DNA of 64,000 bases from a virus. The stretch spans positions 1 to 64,000 of the IMG/VR virus record IMGVR_UViG_3300034684_000096; one strand, 5' to 3'. Below are positions 12,462 through 54,255 of this stretch, in pieces. Numbering within the stretch: position 1 is the first letter of the stretch; each line of letters begins with the position of its first letter. The position numbers and the translations under genes were made by a program. The notes under the pieces were generated by a model that saw only the letters and a program-made list of their open reading frames with translations, had not been told where the DNA came from and did not search any database.

Positions 12462-14130
12462 GTCCCTTTTCTTTCAAAATACTTTGAACTTGTCGAGTAA
12501 TATGCATAATATCTGTTTCATTGTCCATTACTGCTAAAATATCATTTTGCTTATTGACCAACATATCAATTACCTCTTCTTCAATAGTGGAAAGTAATAC
12601 AGGAAAGTATACATTAACTGTATCCCACTTACTCCCATCTCTTTCTAATCTTCCATTACATTGTTTAATAGTACTAGGCACATAAGGAAATTCAGCATAG
12701 AGAATAGTGTGTGCGACATATTGCCAGCCATCATTTCCAATACCTGCTGATTTAAATTGACCAAATAGTATTCTAATTTTAGGGTCATCAATGAAAGCAT
12801 TCTTTGCCTCATCCTTTTTCTTTCTACCAGATACTCTCCCATCGAGTTTTACTGATATTTTGGGAAACGCATTATATAAAGTATCAATCACACTATGGTG
12901 TTCAGTAAAGACAATAATTTTCTCGTCTGTGGACTTAATAAAGTCTTTGAGGAATGAGATAACAAAGTCTAATTTTGCATTAGCTGAAAACTCTTTTAGT
13001 TGCATTGCTCTTATTGCACTATTTGTAAGTTCTACATCACCTCTCGTGTACGTAGAGACGTCAGCACGGCCTTCCATAATATCGTCGTATTGTTTCTTAT
13101 CTTTCTCAGACAAATGCAGTGGGAGAACGTGAGGCACTGCTGTGGGCAGTCCTTCAATCGTTGCGTGATTCAATCTCCTGAACATTACATGTTTGGTCAG
13201 TAATGTGTATAATTCCTCTAAGTTTGAAGAACCCTTATCATCAAAATATTCTCTTTTTAACCATTTACCATTTTTCTTATAAGACATTGAAGCCATGTGT
13301 CCATTACAATATCTTAATGCAAAGTGTTTCTTATCATGCCATATATCTGGTCTCAATATATTCAATATATTAAAGAACTCAATTGGTTTGTTTTCAATTG
13401 GTGTTGCTGATAATGCTAGTATATTTGGTGTATCTTTGATAATGTATCTAATGCTATGGTTCCATAGTGTTGTTTCTTCTTTTAAATATTGGCATTCATC
13501 AAAAATTACTCCTTGAAAATGCATGTTCTTTAATTCTTCAACACCCGGACTATAATAGTATCTTTTTCCACGTTTTTCAGTATTGAGACTAAATAATTCA
13601 TAGTTAGCGATTATGACATCAGCGTCATATGCATGAATAGAATCTACTCCATCACATACTACTACTCTTTTACTATCAGTATCAAACCTAGTAAACTCTC
13701 TTTCCCATTGAGTTTTTGTAGATGCTTGGCATACAATAAGTAATGGATAATTAATCTTTGTGTATAGAAAGTAACTACTCGCGGTAATGGTTTTACCTAG
13801 CCCCACGTCATCAGCCAATAACATTCTTCCACCGTGCGCTATAGCATATTCTAATGGAGATACTTGATAGTCTCGTAAATGAGGAACTCTATACCGTTTT
13901 AATGGTCTAGTAGGATATTGCTTATTTACATAGGCATATTTATTAATAGCACCAATAGCATGAAGCTTTTTTATATTTTCATCATTGAATTGAAACTCAA
14001 CTTCAGATGTATTTCTATTATAATGCCCACCCATCTCCACAAGTTCTGCTACTTGTTCTCGTTTCTTCTTTGGACCCCTATCTTGAGGGGATATATAAAT
14101 AGTGTTATTGTCTACTCTTGTTTTATACAA
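12448..14130 (-). CDS. SNF2-family (SF2) helicase
   Basis: LLADDVGLGKT, DECQ, LSATPIEN, QCNGRLER. Confidence 0.9.
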   Translation of the reverse strand: MYKTRVDNNTIYISPQDRGPKKKREQVAELVEMGGHYNRNTSEVEFQFNDENIKKLHAIGAINKYAYVNKQYPTRPLKRYRVPHLRDYQVSPLEYAIAHGGRMLLADDVGLGKTITASSYFLYTKINYPLLIVCQASTKTQWEREFTRFDTDSKRVVVCDGVDSIHAYDADVIIANYELFSLNTEKRGKRYYYSPGVEELKNMHFQGVIFDECQYLKEETTLWNHSIRYIIKDTPNILALSATPIENKPIEFFNILNILRPDIWHDKKHFALRYCNGHMASMSYKKNGKWLKREYFDDKGSSNLEELYTLLTKHVMFRRLNHATIEGLPTAVPHVLPLHLSEKDKKQYDDIMEGRADVSTYTRGDVELTNSAIRAMQLKEFSANAKLDFVISFLKDFIKSTDEKIIVFTEHHSVIDTLYNAFPKISVKLDGRVSGRKKKDEAKNAFIDDPKIRILFGQFKSAGIGNDGWQYVAHTILYAEFPYVPSTIKQCNGRLERDGSKWDTVNVYFPVLLSTIEEEVIDMLVNKQNDILAVMDNETDIMHITRQVQSILKEKGLDNL

Positions 14131-32838: not shown

Positions 32839-33261
32839 TTACAATAGTTTTAAATCTTTTGTTATAGGGTCTATCCTCTCAGAAGCATCTGGACCAATTG
32901 CAATACAGGTAATGGTCTTTACTCCTCCAAATTCAGTCCATCCATTATCCTCAATCAACGCTACCGGAAGTCCAGCTTCTTCTGCTTTGCTTTTAATTTC
33001 CAATAGTTCCTCTAATGAATTAACCCCTAGCACAATTTTAGTAAAATCTCCCTCAATCCATTCTACCATTTCTTTCGTTACATTTTCTATCTCATAACTA
33101 ATGACTTCAGTAGTGTCATCTCCTATTGAAGAAAAAGGATAACTTACTGACTGCTTCATTCTATCAAAGAATATCTTCATGGAAGCGTGAGCTGACTGAG
33201 AACAGGCTTTTCCTTTTCTCATGTTTAAATCTTTTCTCATTACAATAACTTGTTTAATCAT
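32839..33261 (-). CDS. peptidyl-tRNA hydrolase Pth2 family
   Basis: KQVIVMRKDLNMRKGK.CSQ.AHAS, KIVL, D.G.TE, T.IAIGP, ID.IT..LKLL. Confidence 0.92.
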   Translation of the reverse strand: MIKQVIVMRKDLNMRKGKACSQSAHASMKIFFDRMKQSVSYPFSSIGDDTTEVISYEIENVTKEMVEWIEGDFTKIVLGVNSLEELLEIKSKAEEAGLPVALIEDNGWTEFGGVKTITCIAIGPDASERIDPITKDLKLL

Positions 33262-40414: not shown

Positions 40415-41587
40415 TTACTCTGACGCCTTGTAATTCCATACAGGCTTTAACACTTCTACTACCTCTACCGTAGGACCAATCTGACTCAGAATAGCTTCCG
40501 GTGCTTTATAAGCAAAAGGTGCTTCATCGATAGTCAATTCACTAATACAAGTAGTATGGATACCTTCCATACTTCTTTTAAAATCTTCTAGAGAAATATT
40601 CTCTTTTGCTTGTGTCCTTGACATTACCCTACCAGCACCATGAGGAGCAGAGTAATTCCATTCTTCATTGCCTTTTCCTATTCCTATAATCATTCCATCT
40701 CTCATGTTCAATGGGATAACTACTTTCTCTCCCTCATATGCACTAATTGCTCCTTTCCTCAATATCATACTCTTCTGCTCAATGTAATTATGGGTAGAGG
40801 AAATATATTCAGTGTAATTAGCGCCACCTAATTCATGTAGAATATTATTAATAATCATGCATCGATTGATATGAGCAAACGCCGTTGCTACTTCAACACA
40901 AAAGATGTATTCCAACATATCCCTACCAGTTAAGTACTCTAACCCATTGGCTATTTCAATCTTTGGTAATTCAGCAATCTTCTTCCCTAACTCATAGCTC
41001 GTGTACTGTTCTTTCAACTTAGCAATTGCATCATTTCTCTCTTTCTTATGGTTAGTACGCTTAGCAATGTTCTGGAAATGCTTAGCAATCTTACCCCCAA
41101 AACTACGGGAACCAGTATGAACACATAGCCACTGATTACCTTCTTTATCCACATCTACCTCAACATAATGATTTCCTCCACCGAGTGTACCTAAGCCCCT
41201 AACCGCTTCCTCTGGACTCTGGTTAGTCATCTTACACACTTTATGAAAGGACATAGGAAGCTTATATTCAAGAGAAGGTCTGTAACCTGCATCAAATATT
41301 TTTTCAATAATCTCGTCCAATACATTTACGTCAATATTCTTCTCCAACTTTACAGCCAACACACCACACCCAATGTCTGGTCCAATAAGATTAGGTACCA
41401 CTTTTTTCGTAATCTTCATAGTATACCCAATTACACAATTAGCTCCAGCATGTACATCACTCATAATTCTTGTATGTGCATTTTCACTGATAGGCAAATC
41501 AACAATATGCTGTATTTGTTCCTTAGCAGTATCTTCAATTTCAGATGCAAAAATTACTGCTGTATCATACTTTCCTTCTATAATCAT
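40415..41587 (-). CDS. rtcB: RtcB-family RNA ligase
   Basis: MSDVHAG, G.DIGCG, LGTLGGGNHY, HTGSR, HN, RKGA, SAPHGAGR, DEAP.AYK. Confidence 0.95.
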   Translation of the reverse strand: MIIEGKYDTAVIFASEIEDTAKEQIQHIVDLPISENAHTRIMSDVHAGANCVIGYTMKITKKVVPNLIGPDIGCGVLAVKLEKNIDVNVLDEIIEKIFDAGYRPSLEYKLPMSFHKVCKMTNQSPEEAVRGLGTLGGGNHYVEVDVDKEGNQWLCVHTGSRSFGGKIAKHFQNIAKRTNHKKERNDAIAKLKEQYTSYELGKKIAELPKIEIANGLEYLTGRDMLEYIFCVEVATAFAHINRCMIINNILHELGGANYTEYISSTHNYIEQKSMILRKGAISAYEGEKVVIPLNMRDGMIIGIGKGNEEWNYSAPHGAGRVMSRTQAKENISLEDFKRSMEGIHTTCISELTIDEAPFAYKAPEAILSQIGPTVEVVEVLKPVWNYKASE

Positions 41588-42479: not shown

Positions 42480-43586
42480 TTACAACGTCTCCTTATTTCC
42501 AGCAAACCATAGCTGGTAACTTCTACTCTTAGCTTTAAAACCAATACTCTGGTCAGTCATACTTCTCCACACCAAGCCTTCCCTAGGCACATCAGCCAAT
42601 ACACTTGTACCTTCGCAATCTTTCAATACTTCATCCAATGTATCAGGCAAGGTAACTCCTGTACCTACAAGCGGTACCATTAAAAGGTCGTGCTTAAAAC
42701 AGAATTGTTGCAACTCATTGAAATTAAATGCTTCCCCTGTATCAACATCTGTGACCTTATAGACAAACAACATAGGCATCTTCAACCCATAAATATTCTT
42801 CTGAACATCTGGACCGCAAACCTCACCCTGTATACAAAGATTACGTTTTTCGCTCCTAAGAATTCTCTCAAGTCCGTATATCTTACCGACTCTAGCCCAT
42901 AGGTTATTGTCGTTAGAATTACGAATTACATTGTGAGAAAACACTAGATACTTCCTTCGCTTTCCATAGAGTAGCCATGCTCCGGCACTTCCCTCACACT
43001 TTTCGGTCACATAAAAACGCTCATCTGGTCTCTGCTCTTTATATGCATTAAACAACTTCTCAATATTCGTTTCATCAGACTTCTGTACTGTTTCTGGGTA
43101 CTGCCTAATTTTCTTACCACGAATCTTTGCATACAGTTTTCTAAACCACTTGAACCGCATGAAAAACAGCATAATAGGGTTCTTATGTTTATTCTGAATC
43201 TGTTGCTTACCCTGTAGTTCCTCTGGGTCATATTTACGAATACCTAGTACCTCCGATACATCAGCACCCTCTTTAATTACAAAGTCTTCTGGAAGAATGT
43301 CCAAATTGAATGCAATGCCCGAAGAGTACATCCCACACATTTTCATGTTTCTAATTCTGAACCCATCATACAGTTTAGAATATGAATTTTTTCTTAAAAA
43401 CTCAAACTCTGGTTTAACAGGAAGCAAGGTGTCGTAAAAAATATAAACACACAAATCTCCTTCTTTAAACTGGTCTTTCTGTACAATAACCGGATAGTTT
43501 TCAATCGTTGCTTTCACAACCCTATCATACTTTGGAATAGGTTCAATCTTCTGAACCTTTGCTATAATTGCTAAATCTCTTGCCAT
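42480..43586 (-). CDS. ATP-dependent RNA ligase, Rnl2/DRB0094-like
   Basis: N-terminal OB-like domain; K.DE.NI, TEKCEGS (motif I), IQGE, REGLV, FK. Confidence 0.88.
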   Translation of the reverse strand: MARDLAIIAKVQKIEPIPKYDRVVKATIENYPVIVQKDQFKEGDLCVYIFYDTLLPVKPEFEFLRKNSYSKLYDGFRIRNMKMCGMYSSGIAFNLDILPEDFVIKEGADVSEVLGIRKYDPEELQGKQQIQNKHKNPIMLFFMRFKWFRKLYAKIRGKKIRQYPETVQKSDETNIEKLFNAYKEQRPDERFYVTEKCEGSAGAWLLYGKRRKYLVFSHNVIRNSNDNNLWARVGKIYGLERILRSEKRNLCIQGEVCGPDVQKNIYGLKMPMLFVYKVTDVDTGEAFNFNELQQFCFKHDLLMVPLVGTGVTLPDTLDEVLKDCEGTSVLADVPREGLVWRSMTDQSIGFKAKSRSYQLWFAGNKETL

Positions 43587-52930: not shown

Positions 52931-53036
52931 AGTAACTCCTCTTTATGTATATATAATACCATGGATAAAAAAGCTTGTCAATACTATTTTAGAAAAAACT
53001 ATCTTTCCAGTAGTTTATAAATAAATTGTTCTGCGG

Positions 53037-53279
53037 TTAGCATGGTGCACTCCTTGGAAGGAAACAATCTTCAAGTATATACGTCTCGTGATTCAAATGA
53101 CGATTGATACCAAAAATATCATGAGCAAAATCAAACCACTCAAAATTTAGTAATTTCTGTAGGTCTAATGACTGCTTTTCCATACAGAAATGTAAATCCA
53201 TCATAGTTGTCAAGTAAGGCATCTGTAATTCTTTTTCAGCTCTTTTTGCAATCTTTTGCATTAAATCATCTTTATTCAT
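53037..53279 (-). CDS. hypothetical protein
   Basis: AAGGA RBS before MNKDD; F.HDIFGINRH...CFLPR motif; the longer start in the ORF track lies inside the RNA gene. Confidence 0.7.
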   Translation of the reverse strand: MNKDDLMQKIAKRAEKELQMPYLTTMMDLHFCMEKQSLDLQKLLNFEWFDFAHDIFGINRHLNHETYILEDCFLPRSAPC

Positions 53280-53294
53280 GTTATTTTCCTTTAT

Positions 53295-53400
53295 TGGAGG
53301 TAAGGGGAATTGAACCCCTGTCTTATTAACTCTAAGCTTTCGTAATGTAGGCATTTATCGTCGCTTCATGCAAGTTAACAATCGAACCCTGTATACCCCC
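53295..53400 (-). ncRNA. ssrA: miniature tmRNA-like RNA (alanine tRNA-like domain plus short candidate tag frame)
   Basis: Acceptor stem GGGGGUA/UACCUCC with G3:U70 and discriminator A; stemless D-loop ending GGGUUCGA; helix UUGUUAACU/AGUUAAUAA; GAC linker; T-arm AGGGG-UUCAAUU-CCCCU; internal GAUAAAU-GCC UAC AUU ACG AAA GCU UAG. Confidence 0.85.
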
Positions 53401-53409
53401 GTAATTCAT

Positions 53410-53643
53410 TTATGCATTCTGCAAGGTTACAGAACCATCGTAATCTTCAAACATGCCTATAGCCCACATATTTGAATAATGCCCAACATCAATAGCACCC
53501 CCCTTATACACCACAACCACACCAGCACCACAAGTACCATTAGAGGAATTCATGAGCACAATGTTACCACTACTGGTTGACTTCATCAATTTTGGAAAAT
53601 CACTCACATGTTCTCCCTTATCCTTCGCAATTGTTTTAATCAT
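53410..53643 (-). CDS. hypothetical protein
   Basis: Own promoter and AAGGAG RBS; FPKLM...W...F..Y.G.VTL.N. Confidence 0.7.
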   Translation of the reverse strand: MIKTIAKDKGEHVSDFPKLMKSTSSGNIVLMNSSNGTCGAGVVVVYKGGAIDVGHYSNMWAIGMFEDYDGSVTLQNA

Positions 53644-53701
53644 CTTTCTTTCTCCTTATATAGTAAGTATATACTATTTATTATTGTTTGTCAATAACTA
53701 T

Positions 53702-54200: not shown

Positions 54201-54255
54201 TTGTTTTCCTTCTTATATATACAGTATATATTGTTATTTATTGTTTGTCAATAAA

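What the first reader, a model, noticed from the sequence alone, without database searches (positions are those of the whole stretch)
53295..53400. 106-nt miniature tmRNA with an intact alanyl tRNA-like domain and a 6-codon candidate tag
Seen: the minus strand reads GGGGGUA UACAGGGUUCGA UUGUUAACU UGCAUGAAGCGACGAUAAAU GCC UAC AUU ACG AAA GCU UAG AGUUAAUAA GAC AGGGG UUCAAUU CCCCU UACCUCC A. It has a 7-bp acceptor stem with G3:U70 and discriminator A, no D-stem, a 9-bp helix in place of the anticodon arm, a 3-nt GAC linker and a canonical T-arm. CCA is not encoded. Established: G3:U70 is the AlaRS determinant; a stemless D-loop ending GGnUUCGA, the GAC linker, the UGCAUG after helix 2 and an AUARNY-GCN resume context are tmRNA hallmarks; normal tmRNAs are roughly 350 nt with several pseudoknots. 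Inference: this is a pseudoknot-free tmRNA about one third normal size. It may rescue ribosomes and append (A)AYITKA (53332-53352), whose KA end differs from the usual AA degron and might spare phage proteins. Alternatively it may be a decoy that titrates SmpB or a tRNA/tmRNA-cleaving defence nuclease. I recall reduced phage ssrA genes having been reported, so novelty rests mainly on the retained tag frame.
Basis: partly seen in the sequence, partly recalled or inferred. Interest (0 to 1): 0.95.

Follow-up and report, generated by a model that had tools for sequence, protein, structure and literature searches.

The report
Phage mini-tmRNA without conserved tag
An uncultured 120-kb phage carries a real, conserved 106-base miniature of the bacterial ribosome-rescue RNA (tmRNA) that keeps the alanine-accepting end and a small conserved hairpin, but its apparent six-codon tag is not kept in relatives, so it probably hijacks or blocks host ribosome rescue rather than tagging proteins.

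Summary
Window 53295-53400 (minus strand) reads as described and is the window's only Rfam match at gathering score: tmRNA, 52.1 bits against a cut-off of 47, with 300 central model positions missing.

It belongs to a family I call class A: 17 distinct sequences from viral and metagenome contigs. All four helices covary: 95.8% of cells are paired against 65% in shuffles, and 21 of 25 pairs change on both sides. G3:U70, discriminator A and the GAC linker are invariant, and no member encodes CCA.

The tag reading fails at family level. The GCN frame closes before the T arm in only 8 of 17 members. Stops are as frequent in all three frames as in shuffles. The block ACGAAAGC is conserved as nucleotides while its frame shifts.

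The closest published thing is the TLD-only tmRNA of mycobacteriophage DS6A, which lacks this core. No phage SmpB was found in 12 records. A phage peptidyl-tRNA hydrolase (PTH2) is enriched in class A records but not obligatory.

This scan has noted phage mini-tmRNAs before on other DNA. Verdict: a new variant of a known kind; function inferred, not shown.

The parts
53295..53400 (-). Mini-tmRNA gene (class A), 106 nt, 5' end at 53400, discriminator A at 53295; CCA not encoded
   Evidence: Sequence; Rfam RF00023 52.1 bits, GA 47; own model R1 105.4 bits
53394..53400 (-). Acceptor stem 5' strand GGGGGUA (pairs with 53296-53302, G3:U70)
   Evidence: 17 of 17 relatives paired at all 7 pairs; G1-C, G2-C and G3-U invariant; 4 pairs change on both sides
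53382..53393 (-). Stemless D-loop analogue UACAGGGUUCGA
   Evidence: Aligned to the tmRNA consensus GGaUUCGAC; UCGA invariant in 17 of 17
53373..53381 (-). Helix 2, 5' strand UUGUUAACU (pairs with 53323-53331)
   Evidence: 9 of 9 pairs change on both sides, 95.4% of cells paired
53367..53372 (-). Linker UGCAUG, variable in relatives
   Evidence: Alignment A6; G34>A in a diverged contig
53334..53366 (-). Conserved core hairpin: helix 3 (AAGC at 53363-53366 with GCUU at 53334-53337) enclosing GACGAUAAAU-GCC-UACAUU-ACGAAA
   Evidence: Helix 3: 4 of 4 pairs change on both sides, 83.8% paired. ACG, AA and CGAA invariant in 17 of 17. Positions after GACG and before CGAA co-vary: A/A x13, U/U x2, G/U, U/C
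53332..53352 (-).
   Evidence: Present here; not conserved as a frame
53323..53331 (-). Helix 2, 3' strand AGUUAAUAA
53320..53322 (-). GAC linker
   Evidence: Invariant in 17 of 17, although four of the five patterns used did not require it
53303..53319 (-). T arm AGGGG-UUCAAUU-CCCCU
   Evidence: 100% paired, 4 of 5 pairs change on both sides
53296..53302 (-). Acceptor stem 3' strand UACCUCC
53666..53694 (-). Promoter-like site TTGACA-17-TATACT (11 of 12), likely start of the unit ORF77 - RNA - DUF6874 gene
   Evidence: same form at 54223-54251 and 52953-52981. Consensus match only; the site count is not above shuffles
53410..53643 (-). Upstream 77-aa ORF; its stop lies 9 nt before the RNA 5' end
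   Evidence: phrog_34898, unknown function
53037..53279 (-). Downstream 80-aa DUF6874 gene; RBS AAGGAAA and ATG 15 nt after the RNA 3' end
   Evidence: replaced by other DNA in one diverged contig that keeps the RNA
32839..33261 (-). Phage peptidyl-tRNA hydrolase PTH2, candidate partner (association, not shown to act on this RNA)
   Evidence: PF01981 109.6 bits; TIGR00283 98.9 bits, cut-off 82; co-occurrence

Best explanation
This is a functional, tmRNA-derived small RNA gene of a lytic-type phage. It keeps only the tRNA-like domain, a 9-bp helix 2 and a conserved ~33-nt hairpin.

Inferred mechanism:
1. It is cut out of a polycistronic transcript like a tRNA, and host enzyme adds CCA.
2. Host AlaRS charges it with alanine through G3:U70.
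3. It binds host SmpB and EF-Tu and enters stalled (non-stop) ribosomes in competition with host tmRNA.
4. It can accept the nascent chain, but it offers no conserved tag message and is too small to thread like tmRNA.

The net effect would be to divert stalled ribosomes and SmpB away from the host's tag-and-degrade pathway. The resulting peptidyl-RNA would be resolved by a peptidyl-tRNA hydrolase, phage PTH2 where present and otherwise the host's.

Shown here: the gene, its fold, its conservation, and the lack of a conserved reading frame. Inferred: charging, SmpB and EF-Tu binding, ribosome entry, and the role of PTH2.
For: Identity: Rfam tmRNA scores above the gathering cut-off.

Family: 17 distinct class A sequences were collected in four ways.
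- 5'-anchored patterns.
- A core-anchored pattern that leaves both acceptor strands and the D-loop free.
- Neighbourhoods of PTH2 genes.
- Whole PTH2-bearing records.

Fold: 95.8% of cells are paired against 65.0% in shuffles. 21 of 25 pairs change on both sides. 0 of 500 shuffles reach the observed values, and slid registers give 42-53%.

Selection for alanine identity: G3:U70 and discriminator A are present in 17 of 17. This includes L055 and L134, which escape the 5' patterns, and the long forms L136 and L137. That argues the RNA must be charged, which goes beyond passive SmpB binding.

No coding:
- The GCN frame is closed in 8 of 17.
- Stops occur in frames 0, 1 and 2 in 9, 8 and 7 of 15 sequences, against 8.0, 7.9 and 7.6 expected from shuffles.
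- L013 has no stop in any frame.
- ACGAAAGC is read as T-K-A in some members and as N-E-S in others.

Conservation in near relatives: at least 4 substitutions are listed in the 106 nt in the diverged contigs of runs X7 and X9, none in a helix. The upstream ORF carries many substitutions and indels, and the downstream gene is swapped out in X9.

Dependence on the host:
- No SmpB in 12 of 12 class A records.
- No CCA-adding enzyme in this phage.
- None of its 8 tRNA genes encodes CCA either.

Literature (passages read):
- A TLD-only tmRNA accepts peptide in vitro (Shimizu and Ueda 2006, as cited in PMC3895274).
- A DS6A-like molecule strongly inhibits tmRNA (Mao 2009, as cited in PMC4131195).
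- The normal MLD-pseudoknot ring measures 81 x 97 to 96 x 128 Å around the 30S beak (PMC8363625). By my arithmetic, a 41-nt loop (at most about 270 Å fully stretched, less when folded) cannot reach around that.

PTH2: present in 5 of 10 class A viral records that were found without reference to PTH2, against 0 of 29 other contigs over the cut-off. Fisher one-sided p is about 4e-4 by my arithmetic. PTH2 lies 0.5-4.4 kb from the RNA in L055, L066, L016 and L013.
Against: - No expression, processing, charging or binding data exist.
- The conserved core (invariant ACG..AA..GCM..CGAA) is not needed for simple SmpB titration and is unexplained by this model. It includes an Ala codon with an A-rich upstream context like a resume site, which leaves room for some message-like step.
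- In this particular sequence the frame is intact, with a textbook AUAAAU|GCC context. Two other members (L050, L144) also read xxTKA-stop.
- PTH2 is not obligatory: a 91%-complete class A record lacks it.
- PTH2 is mainly a companion of phage tRNA arrays. 47 of 79 PTH2 loci hold tRNAs, and only 3 of 79 hold a class A RNA within 10 kb.
- The records are not phylogenetically independent, and many are fragments.
- The covariation alignment was fitted to the model's structure.
Confidence: 0.55

Rival explanations
1. Working minimal tagger. After alanine transfer the ribosome resumes on GCC and adds AAYITKA (or another short non-degron peptide in relatives), terminates at UAG and is released. This would be true trans-translation without pseudoknots.
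For: This sequence has A at -4 and U at -5 before GCC. The same context appears in full-length phage tmRNAs (UAUAAAC|GCA and AAUAAUU|GCA) and in E. coli, where A86 is the key determinant (PMC2481249 passages). GCN is GCC or GCA in 17 of 17. The two diverged contigs keep it, with UAC changed to UUU. Tags of only 2 aa are reported in bacteria (PMC11915505).
Against: Only 8 of 17 close the frame, at different places and with unrelated C-termini. Stops are no more frequent than in other frames or in shuffles. The spacing varies by 1-2 nt while the nucleotides stay the same. The U of UAG is a paired base of helix 3, and NAG is GAG, AAG or CAG in 8 of 17. The -4 position co-varies with a partner base, as a structural contact would. 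The 41-nt loop is too short for the ring geometry of PMC8363625 (my inference).
Confidence: 0.12
2. Pure SmpB sponge. The RNA only binds and sequesters host SmpB, shutting down trans-translation without needing to be charged or to enter ribosomes.
For: [quoted passage not shown] No phage SmpB was found in 12 of 12 records. The SmpB-facing D-loop analogue and the GAC linker are invariant.
Against: The strict invariance of G3:U70, G1-C, G2-C and discriminator A in 17 of 17, and of an EF-Tu-type acceptor/T arm, is not needed for a sponge. The conserved core hairpin is unexplained.
Confidence: 0.15
3. tRNA-like punctuation. The element serves mainly as an RNase P/RNase Z cleavage signal that separates the upstream and downstream cistrons.
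For: It is wedged 9 nt after one ORF and 15 nt before the next start, with the RBS left intact. No promoter-like or terminator-like site of its own lies next to it; the nearest promoter-like site lies upstream of ORF77.
Against: In other phages it sits in tRNA arrays or other contexts. Alanine identity and the core motif are conserved across phages that share almost no genes. One relative swaps the downstream gene but keeps the RNA.
Confidence: 0.05
4. Decoy for a host defence nuclease that cuts tRNA or tmRNA.
For: The phage carries RtcB and an RNA ligase, which suggests that its host attacks RNAs of the translation system. An RNA ligase homologue lies about 3 kb from the class A gene in L146.
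Against: There is no anticodon loop to offer to anticodon nucleases. No nuclease partner was identified. Nothing tested here points to cleavage.
Confidence: 0.03

Closest known systems
TLD-only ('no CDS') tmRNA of Mycobacterium phage DS6A (JN698994, 28478-28557; PMC4131195, PMC11915505; Mao et al. 2009, not readable here)
   Same: Phage-encoded. Keeps the acceptor stem with G3:U70, the D-loop analogue, a short helix 2 and the T arm. No pseudoknots and no conserved tag. Expected to act through host SmpB.
   Different: DS6A is about 80 nt with about 20 nt between the helix 2 strands. It scores 43.2 bits in Rfam (below GA 47) and 43.5 bits with my class A model, with the core positions deleted. 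Class A is 104-109 nt (124 in two long forms). It has a conserved helix 3 and the motif GACGxAA-GCM-N-CGAA. Ours scores 105 bits on the same model.
One-piece bacterial tmRNA (ssrA; Rfam RF00023), e.g. E. coli
   Same: tRNA-like domain, helix 2, GAC linker, alanine identity. An A-rich stretch followed by a GCN codon. The string GACGAAAA also occurs in the E. coli tag template as printed in a primer of PMC2481249; this is a resemblance only and was not tested.
   Different: 300 of 374 model positions are absent. There is no PK1-PK4 and no H5. No reading frame is conserved. CCA is not encoded.
Full-length phage tmRNAs inside tRNA arrays with a PTH2-like hydrolase (cluster C mycobacteriophages, PMC5966550 passages)
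   Same: A rescue RNA co-occurs with a PTH2-family peptidyl-tRNA hydrolase and tRNA genes in one phage.
   Different: Those are complete tmRNAs with tags, which ARAGORN finds. Here the RNA is a third of that size and ARAGORN misses it.
CDS-less organellar tmRNAs (a CDS-less mitochondrial form; ~65-bp Mallomonadaceae plastid forms; PMC11915505 passage)
   Same: Reduction to a chargeable tRNA-like domain without a stop-terminated message.
   Different: They belong to organelles with a nuclear SmpB, not phages. No class A core is reported for them; supplements were not visible to me.
Synthetic TLD-only tmRNA fragments used in vitro and in the T. thermophilus crystal structure (as cited in PMC3895274 and PMC8363625)
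   Same: A truncated tmRNA with SmpB and EF-Tu binds the stalled ribosome's A site and takes part in peptidyl transfer. This is the step inferred for the phage RNA.
   Different: They are laboratory constructs, whereas this is a natural, conserved gene with an extra hairpin.

Membership tests
tmRNA (Rfam RF00023) | Covariance-model score at or above the curated gathering score | tested here: met
   52.1 bits against 47, E 1.2e-17
tmRNA (Rfam RF00023) | tRNA-like domain: 7-bp acceptor stem with G3:U70, discriminator A, stemless D-loop analogue, GAC linker, T arm | tested here: met
   Sequence; alignment to the consensus; invariant or covarying in 17 relatives
tmRNA (Rfam RF00023) | mRNA-like domain with a resume codon and an in-frame stop that is conserved among relatives | tested here: not met
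   A frame exists here, but only 8 of 17 relatives close it. Stops by frame are 9, 8 and 7 of 15 against 8.0, 7.9 and 7.6 in shuffles
tmRNA (Rfam RF00023) | Pseudoknots PK1-PK4 and helix 5 forming the ring | tested here: not met
   300 model positions deleted and 36 nt inserted. No covarying pairs outside the four helices
tmRNA (Rfam RF00023) | Works with SmpB | not testable with these tools
   No SmpB gene in this phage or in 11 other class A records. Host unknown
tmRNA (Rfam RF00023) | Alanylation and entry into stalled ribosomes | not testable with these tools
   Only the identity elements can be read
TLD-only / CDS-less phage tmRNA (DS6A type) | tRNA-like domain kept, pseudoknot ring and conserved tag CDS absent | tested here: met
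TLD-only / CDS-less phage tmRNA (DS6A type) | 'Little more than the TLD' between the helix 2 strands | tested here: not met
   Ours has a conserved 41-nt insert with helix 3. DS6A has about 20 nt and lacks the core
TLD-only / CDS-less phage tmRNA (DS6A type) | Inhibits host trans-translation | not testable with these tools
   Known only from Mao 2009 as cited
tRNA-Ala gene | D stem and anticodon arm with an Ala anticodon | tested here: not met
   ARAGORN finds nothing here, with or without introns. The Rfam tRNA model loses to tmRNA
attP-type ssrA 3' fragment of temperate phages | Only the 3' part of ssrA, next to an integrase | tested here: not met
   Both halves are present and covary. No tyrosine integrase in the record. 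No class A in 185,579 species genomes by pattern

The most novel reading that the evidence does not exclude
Class A mini-tmRNAs are the RNA half of a phage-owned ribosome-rescue route. A 105-nt RNA with a resume-like Ala codon displayed on a conserved hairpin would carry out a shortened trans-translation on host ribosomes: accept the chain, eject the broken mRNA, and add at most a few residues. A phage PTH2 or GGQ-type hydrolase would then release the untagged product. That would show that rescue needs neither the pseudoknot ring nor a degron, and that phages rewire this pathway during infection.
Probability: 0.12. Interest if true: 0.85.

Novelty: new variant of a known kind. Interest (0 to 1): 0.6.

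Why it matters
Published phage surveys that I read call tmRNA with ARAGORN (PMC9004378 and PMC7162821). ARAGORN missed every mini-tmRNA examined here, so this class is invisible in current annotation.

A conserved family shows selection for a chargeable molecule with an extra, unexplained function. It has an invariant alanine identity and an unexplained core hairpin, and it occurs in phages that otherwise share almost no genes.

It offers a natural minimal substrate for asking which parts of tmRNA are needed for ribosome entry, mRNA swap and release. Together with PTH2, a GGQ protein, RtcB and an RNA ligase in the same phage, it points to phage control of host translation quality control.

Tried and rejected
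Detectors. ARAGORN at default finds no gene at the locus. At a lowered threshold it gives 59 mostly spurious calls, none of them this RNA.

Cultured phages. blastn of the locus and of the RNA against 50,697 phage records gave nothing, or only 24-39-nt matches of the 3' part (mostly T arm and acceptor strand). No cultured relative was found.

Second viral pattern. Of 22 loci, 4 were the known class A. The other 18 were, by eye, mostly tandem tRNA genes or unrelated DNA, plus one CCA-type mini (L020) and normal tmRNA 3' ends.

Species genomes. The pattern scan gave 1 hit, a pair of adjacent tRNAs, so a false hit.

Expression. No RNA holder was listed among 20 runs, so expression could not be examined.

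Pseudoknot search. Mutual information over alignment A6 showed that all top pairs are the four helices. The only extra signal is the X/Y pair beside the invariant CG..CG.

Readings of the core considered by eye and dropped: a kink-turn (the strands do not fit the GA/AG consensus) and a Shine-Dalgarno mimic (absent in ours).

Coding rival. ORF 53037-53354 runs through the RNA's 3' half. However, the DUF6874 match covers residues 3-78 of the 80-aa short form, and a relative swaps that gene while keeping the RNA.

PTH2 as an obligatory partner: rejected (a 91%-complete record lacks it).

GGQ/RF-1-domain protein as a partner: present in only 2 of 12 class A records.

Pth1: absent.

Limits on what I could read. 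Mao et al. 2009 is not in the library; I saw it only as cited. Supplementary tables of PMC11915505, PMC9004378 and PMC5966550 were not visible and may list similar phage forms.

Not-in-print claim. It rests on searches. I saw listings and the named passages only.
Full report
**1. The observation**

Its parts, in order, are:
- acceptor stem GGGGGUA/UACCUCC with G3:U70 and discriminator A;
- a 12-nt stemless D-loop analogue;
- a 9-bp helix (UUGUUAACU/AGUUAAUAA);
- a 41-nt insert;
- a GAC linker;
- T arm AGGGG-UUCAAUU-CCCCU.

CCA is not encoded; the flank is AUA.

Rfam's tmRNA model is the only family to reach its gathering score in the 64-kb window. It scores 52.1 bits against 47, E 1.2e-17, end to end over the model, with 300 central positions deleted and 36 nt inserted.

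ARAGORN does not report it. Folding of the single sequence is only mildly better than shuffles (z -1.8), so the case rests on comparison with relatives.

**2. Setting**

The window is the first 64 kb of a 120,004-bp IMG/VR virus record, estimated 85% complete. Its DNA polymerase is at most 23% identical to that of any cultured phage.

The RNA sits in a long minus-strand gene block. It begins 9 nt after the stop of a 77-aa ORF and ends 15 nt before the start of a DUF6874 gene, whose RBS follows the discriminator base.

A promoter-like site TTGACA-17-TATACT lies upstream of the 77-aa ORF. The RNA would therefore be cut out of a polycistronic transcript.

The phage's eight tRNA genes lie 30 kb away, and none of them encodes CCA either. 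I found no CCA-adding enzyme, SmpB or integrase in the record.

**3. Relatives**

*How they were found.*
- A pattern for a tmRNA-type 5' end and T arm, 41-71 nt apart, found 17 viral contigs. Rfam calls tmRNA above cut-off in 13 of these 17. ARAGORN calls none of them. They fall into several sequence classes.
- Four of the 17 (L007, L009, L013, L016) share with our RNA a distinctive core. I call this group class A.
- A class A pattern that left the putative tag region free found 13 metagenome loci. All were class A, and 6 were new distinct sequences.
- The same pattern found nothing real in one genome each of 185,579 prokaryote species.
- A core-anchored pattern that leaves both acceptor strands and the D-loop free added L142 and L144/L147. 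It also re-found the contigs of L055 and L134.
- Searching around phage PTH2 genes with my covariance model added L055, L134 and two 124-nt long forms, L136 and L137.

In all there are 17 distinct sequences.

*Shared gene content.* These phages share very few genes with ours. Within the loci held, only PTH2 matched for L013 and L016.

*Near relatives in sequencing runs.*
- One run (X3) holds the RNA unchanged.
- The diverged contigs of two runs (X7, X9) show at least four substitutions in the 106 nt, and none is in a helix. They fall in the variable loop (UAC to UUU), the linker and the D-loop. The table of differences was cut, so this is a minimum.
- In the same contigs the upstream ORF carries many substitutions and indels.
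- In one contig the downstream gene is replaced by 371 other letters.

**4. Structure**

On the model-fitted alignment of 17 sequences:
- 95.8% of cells form standard pairs, against 65.0% in shuffles.
- 21 of 25 pairs change on both sides.
- 0 of 500 shuffles reach any observed measure.
- Slid registers give 42-53% paired.

By helix:

| Helix | Cells paired | Pairs changing on both sides |
|---|---|---|
| Acceptor | 100% | 4 of 7 |
| Helix 2 | 95.4% | 9 of 9 |
| Helix 3 (new, short; AAGC/GCUU in ours) | 83.8% | 4 of 4 |
| T stem | 100% | 4 of 5 |

G1-C, G2-C, G3-U, the discriminator A and the GAC linker are invariant.

Inside helix 3 the motif is GACGxAA(R)(U)-GCM-N5-8-yCGAA. ACG, AA and CGAA are invariant. 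Positions x and y co-vary: A/A in 13 sequences, U/U in 2, G/U in 1 and U/C in 1. This suggests that two invariant C-G pairs and a non-canonical x·y pair close an apical loop that displays GCC or GCA.

No further covarying pairs, and therefore no pseudoknot, were seen.

Caveat: the alignment leans towards the model's structure. The earlier MAFFT-based RNAalifold run already found the same helices.

**5. The tag**

Its upstream context (U at -5, A at -4) matches E. coli's key determinant (PMC2481249 passages) and full-length phage tmRNAs.

Across the family this does not hold.
- The distance from GCN to the NAG triplet is 18, 19 or 20 nt in the 11 sequences measured.
- NAG is UAG in 7 of 17, GAG in 6, AAG in 1, CAG in 1, and the triplet is not aligned in the two long forms.
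- The GCN frame meets a stop before the T arm in 8 of 17, at different places. The peptides are unrelated: AYITKA, ALVTKA, AHITKA, ANLNES, AQSNES, AHWCRKAS, AYNIERTSSLK, ALDPKILVP.
- Anchored on GACG, stops occur in the three frames in 9, 8 and 7 of 15 sequences. Composition shuffles give 8.0, 7.9 and 7.6.
- L013 has no stop in any frame.
- The block ACGAAAGC is conserved as nucleotides whether it is read T-K-A or N-E-S. The U of our UAG is a paired base of helix 3.

The constraint is therefore on the RNA, not on a peptide.

Geometry argues the same way. The normal message-and-pseudoknot ring is an ellipse of 81 x 97 to 96 x 128 Å around the 30S beak (PMC8363625 passage), a perimeter of roughly 280-350 Å. 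Forty-one nucleotides fully stretched reach about 270 Å at most. This is my arithmetic and inference.

**6. How it most likely works**

Established or cited:
- G3:U70 is the AlaRS determinant.
- SmpB binds the tRNA-like domain.
- A truncated, TLD-only tmRNA with SmpB and EF-Tu binds the stalled ribosome and takes part in peptidyl transfer (as cited in PMC3895274 and PMC8363625).
- A DS6A-like molecule strongly inhibits tmRNA in E. coli (Mao 2009, as cited in PMC4131195).

Inferred here: the phage RNA is processed, CCA-tailed and alanylated by host enzymes. It takes host SmpB, since no phage SmpB was found in 12 of 12 records. It then competes with host tmRNA at stalled ribosomes without delivering a degradation tag.

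The strict conservation of alanine identity argues that charging matters, so I prefer ribosome entry over a passive sponge.

The core hairpin is conserved for a reason I cannot name. A resume-site relic that helps SmpB or ribosome docking is the obvious candidate.

**7. PTH2**

The only ORF of our genome with a match in the L013 and L016 loci is a peptidyl-tRNA hydrolase of the PTH2 family, at window 32839-33261. It scores 109.6 bits on PF01981 and 98.9 bits on TIGR00283 against a cut-off of 82.

*From the class A side.*
- Among 10 class A viral records found without reference to PTH2, 5 carry it: ours, and the records of L013, L016, L055 and L134.
- The five without it are 5%, 15%, 41%, 49% and 91% complete.
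- None of 29 other contigs does over the cut-off. These are 14 contigs with other mini-tmRNAs and 15 from the tandem-tRNA scan.
- PTH2 lies 0.5, 0.9, 3.5 and 4.4 kb from the RNA in L055, L066, L016 and L013. It lies 20 kb away in ours and about 37 kb away in the record of L134.

*From the PTH2 side the link is loose.*
- IMG/VR holds 183 relatives.
- Of 79 loci examined, 47 hold tRNA genes, 3 hold a full tmRNA and 3 hold a class A RNA within 10 kb.
- 4 of 50 whole records hold a class A or long form.

A published precedent exists: the tRNA arrays of cluster C mycobacteriophages contain both a tmRNA and a PTH2-like hydrolase (PMC5966550 passages).

I read PTH2 as part of a translation-rescue toolkit that could clear peptidyl-mini-tmRNA, not as a proven partner.

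The same genome also encodes:
- a 122-aa GGQ (RF-1 domain) protein beside the tRNA array;
- RtcB and an RNA ligase.

**8. Comparison and novelty**

The closest published object is the TLD-only tmRNA of phage DS6A. I fetched it. It is about 80 nt and scores 43.2 bits in Rfam and 43.5 bits on my model, with the core positions deleted.

Our RNA is therefore of the same kind (a CDS-less phage tmRNA) but a distinct, conserved variant with an added hairpin.

I found no paper describing it.

Earlier notes of this scan describe phage mini-tmRNAs on other DNA. They count as leads, not support. One of them gave me the DS6A coordinates, which I checked.

**9. Verdict**

The finding is a new variant of a known kind. 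I score interest at 0.6.

Noticed in passing
window 32839-33261 (-): Phage peptidyl-tRNA hydrolase of the archaeal/eukaryotic PTH2 type. IMG/VR holds 183 relatives, mostly in large contigs with tRNA arrays.
   Followed up: partly
window 40415-41587 (-) and 42480-43586 (-): RtcB-type tRNA-splicing ligase and an RNA ligase, which point to RNA repair during infection. A 54%-identical RNA ligase lies about 3 kb from the class A RNA in L146.
   Followed up: partly
genome 89820-90188 (-), outside the window (L141:1342-1710): 122-aa protein with a GPGGQ motif and an RF-1 domain (PF00472, 37.8 bits, cut-off 35), next to the tRNA array. It looks like an ArfB/PrfH-like release factor fragment. Homologues sit beside PTH2 in L072 and in a few other loci.
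   Followed up: partly
L003, L005, L010, L012, L017, L020; L006, L014, L018, L019; L004, L008, L011, L015: Other classes of 86-108-nt phage mini-tmRNAs. Some have an encoded CCA, and one group shares a CAUGUG-type hairpin. Most pass Rfam's tmRNA cut-off and ARAGORN calls none. L004 may carry a short frame (by eye, not checked).
   Followed up: partly
L136:1501-1624 (+) and L137:1501-1624 (-): 124-nt long forms of class A with an extra hairpin after the core. L136 has an aberrant T loop (GGCGGAU).
   Followed up: no
L019:13481-13542 (+): A Pistol ribozyme (Rfam, 50.8 bits, cut-off 34.5) lies about 200 nt upstream of a mini-tmRNA (13747-13836).
   Followed up: no
L016:6816-7000 (+): Group I intron (Rfam, 67.4 bits) inside the tRNA array that precedes the class A RNA.
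   Followed up: no
window 54223-54251, 53666-53694, 52953-52981 (-): Three near-consensus promoter-like sites of one form (TTGACA-17-TATACT or TATTAT), about 600-700 bp apart in the small-gene block.
   Followed up: no
window 52981-53271: In one diverged metagenome contig the DUF6874 gene region is replaced by 371 other letters, while the RNA and the upstream genes remain.
   Followed up: no
genome about 84-88 kb, outside the window: Earlier first-reader notes of this scan report a Ro60/TROVE-like gene with Y-RNA-like hairpins and a TnpB inside a tRNA gene in the same phage. I did not check them.
   Followed up: no
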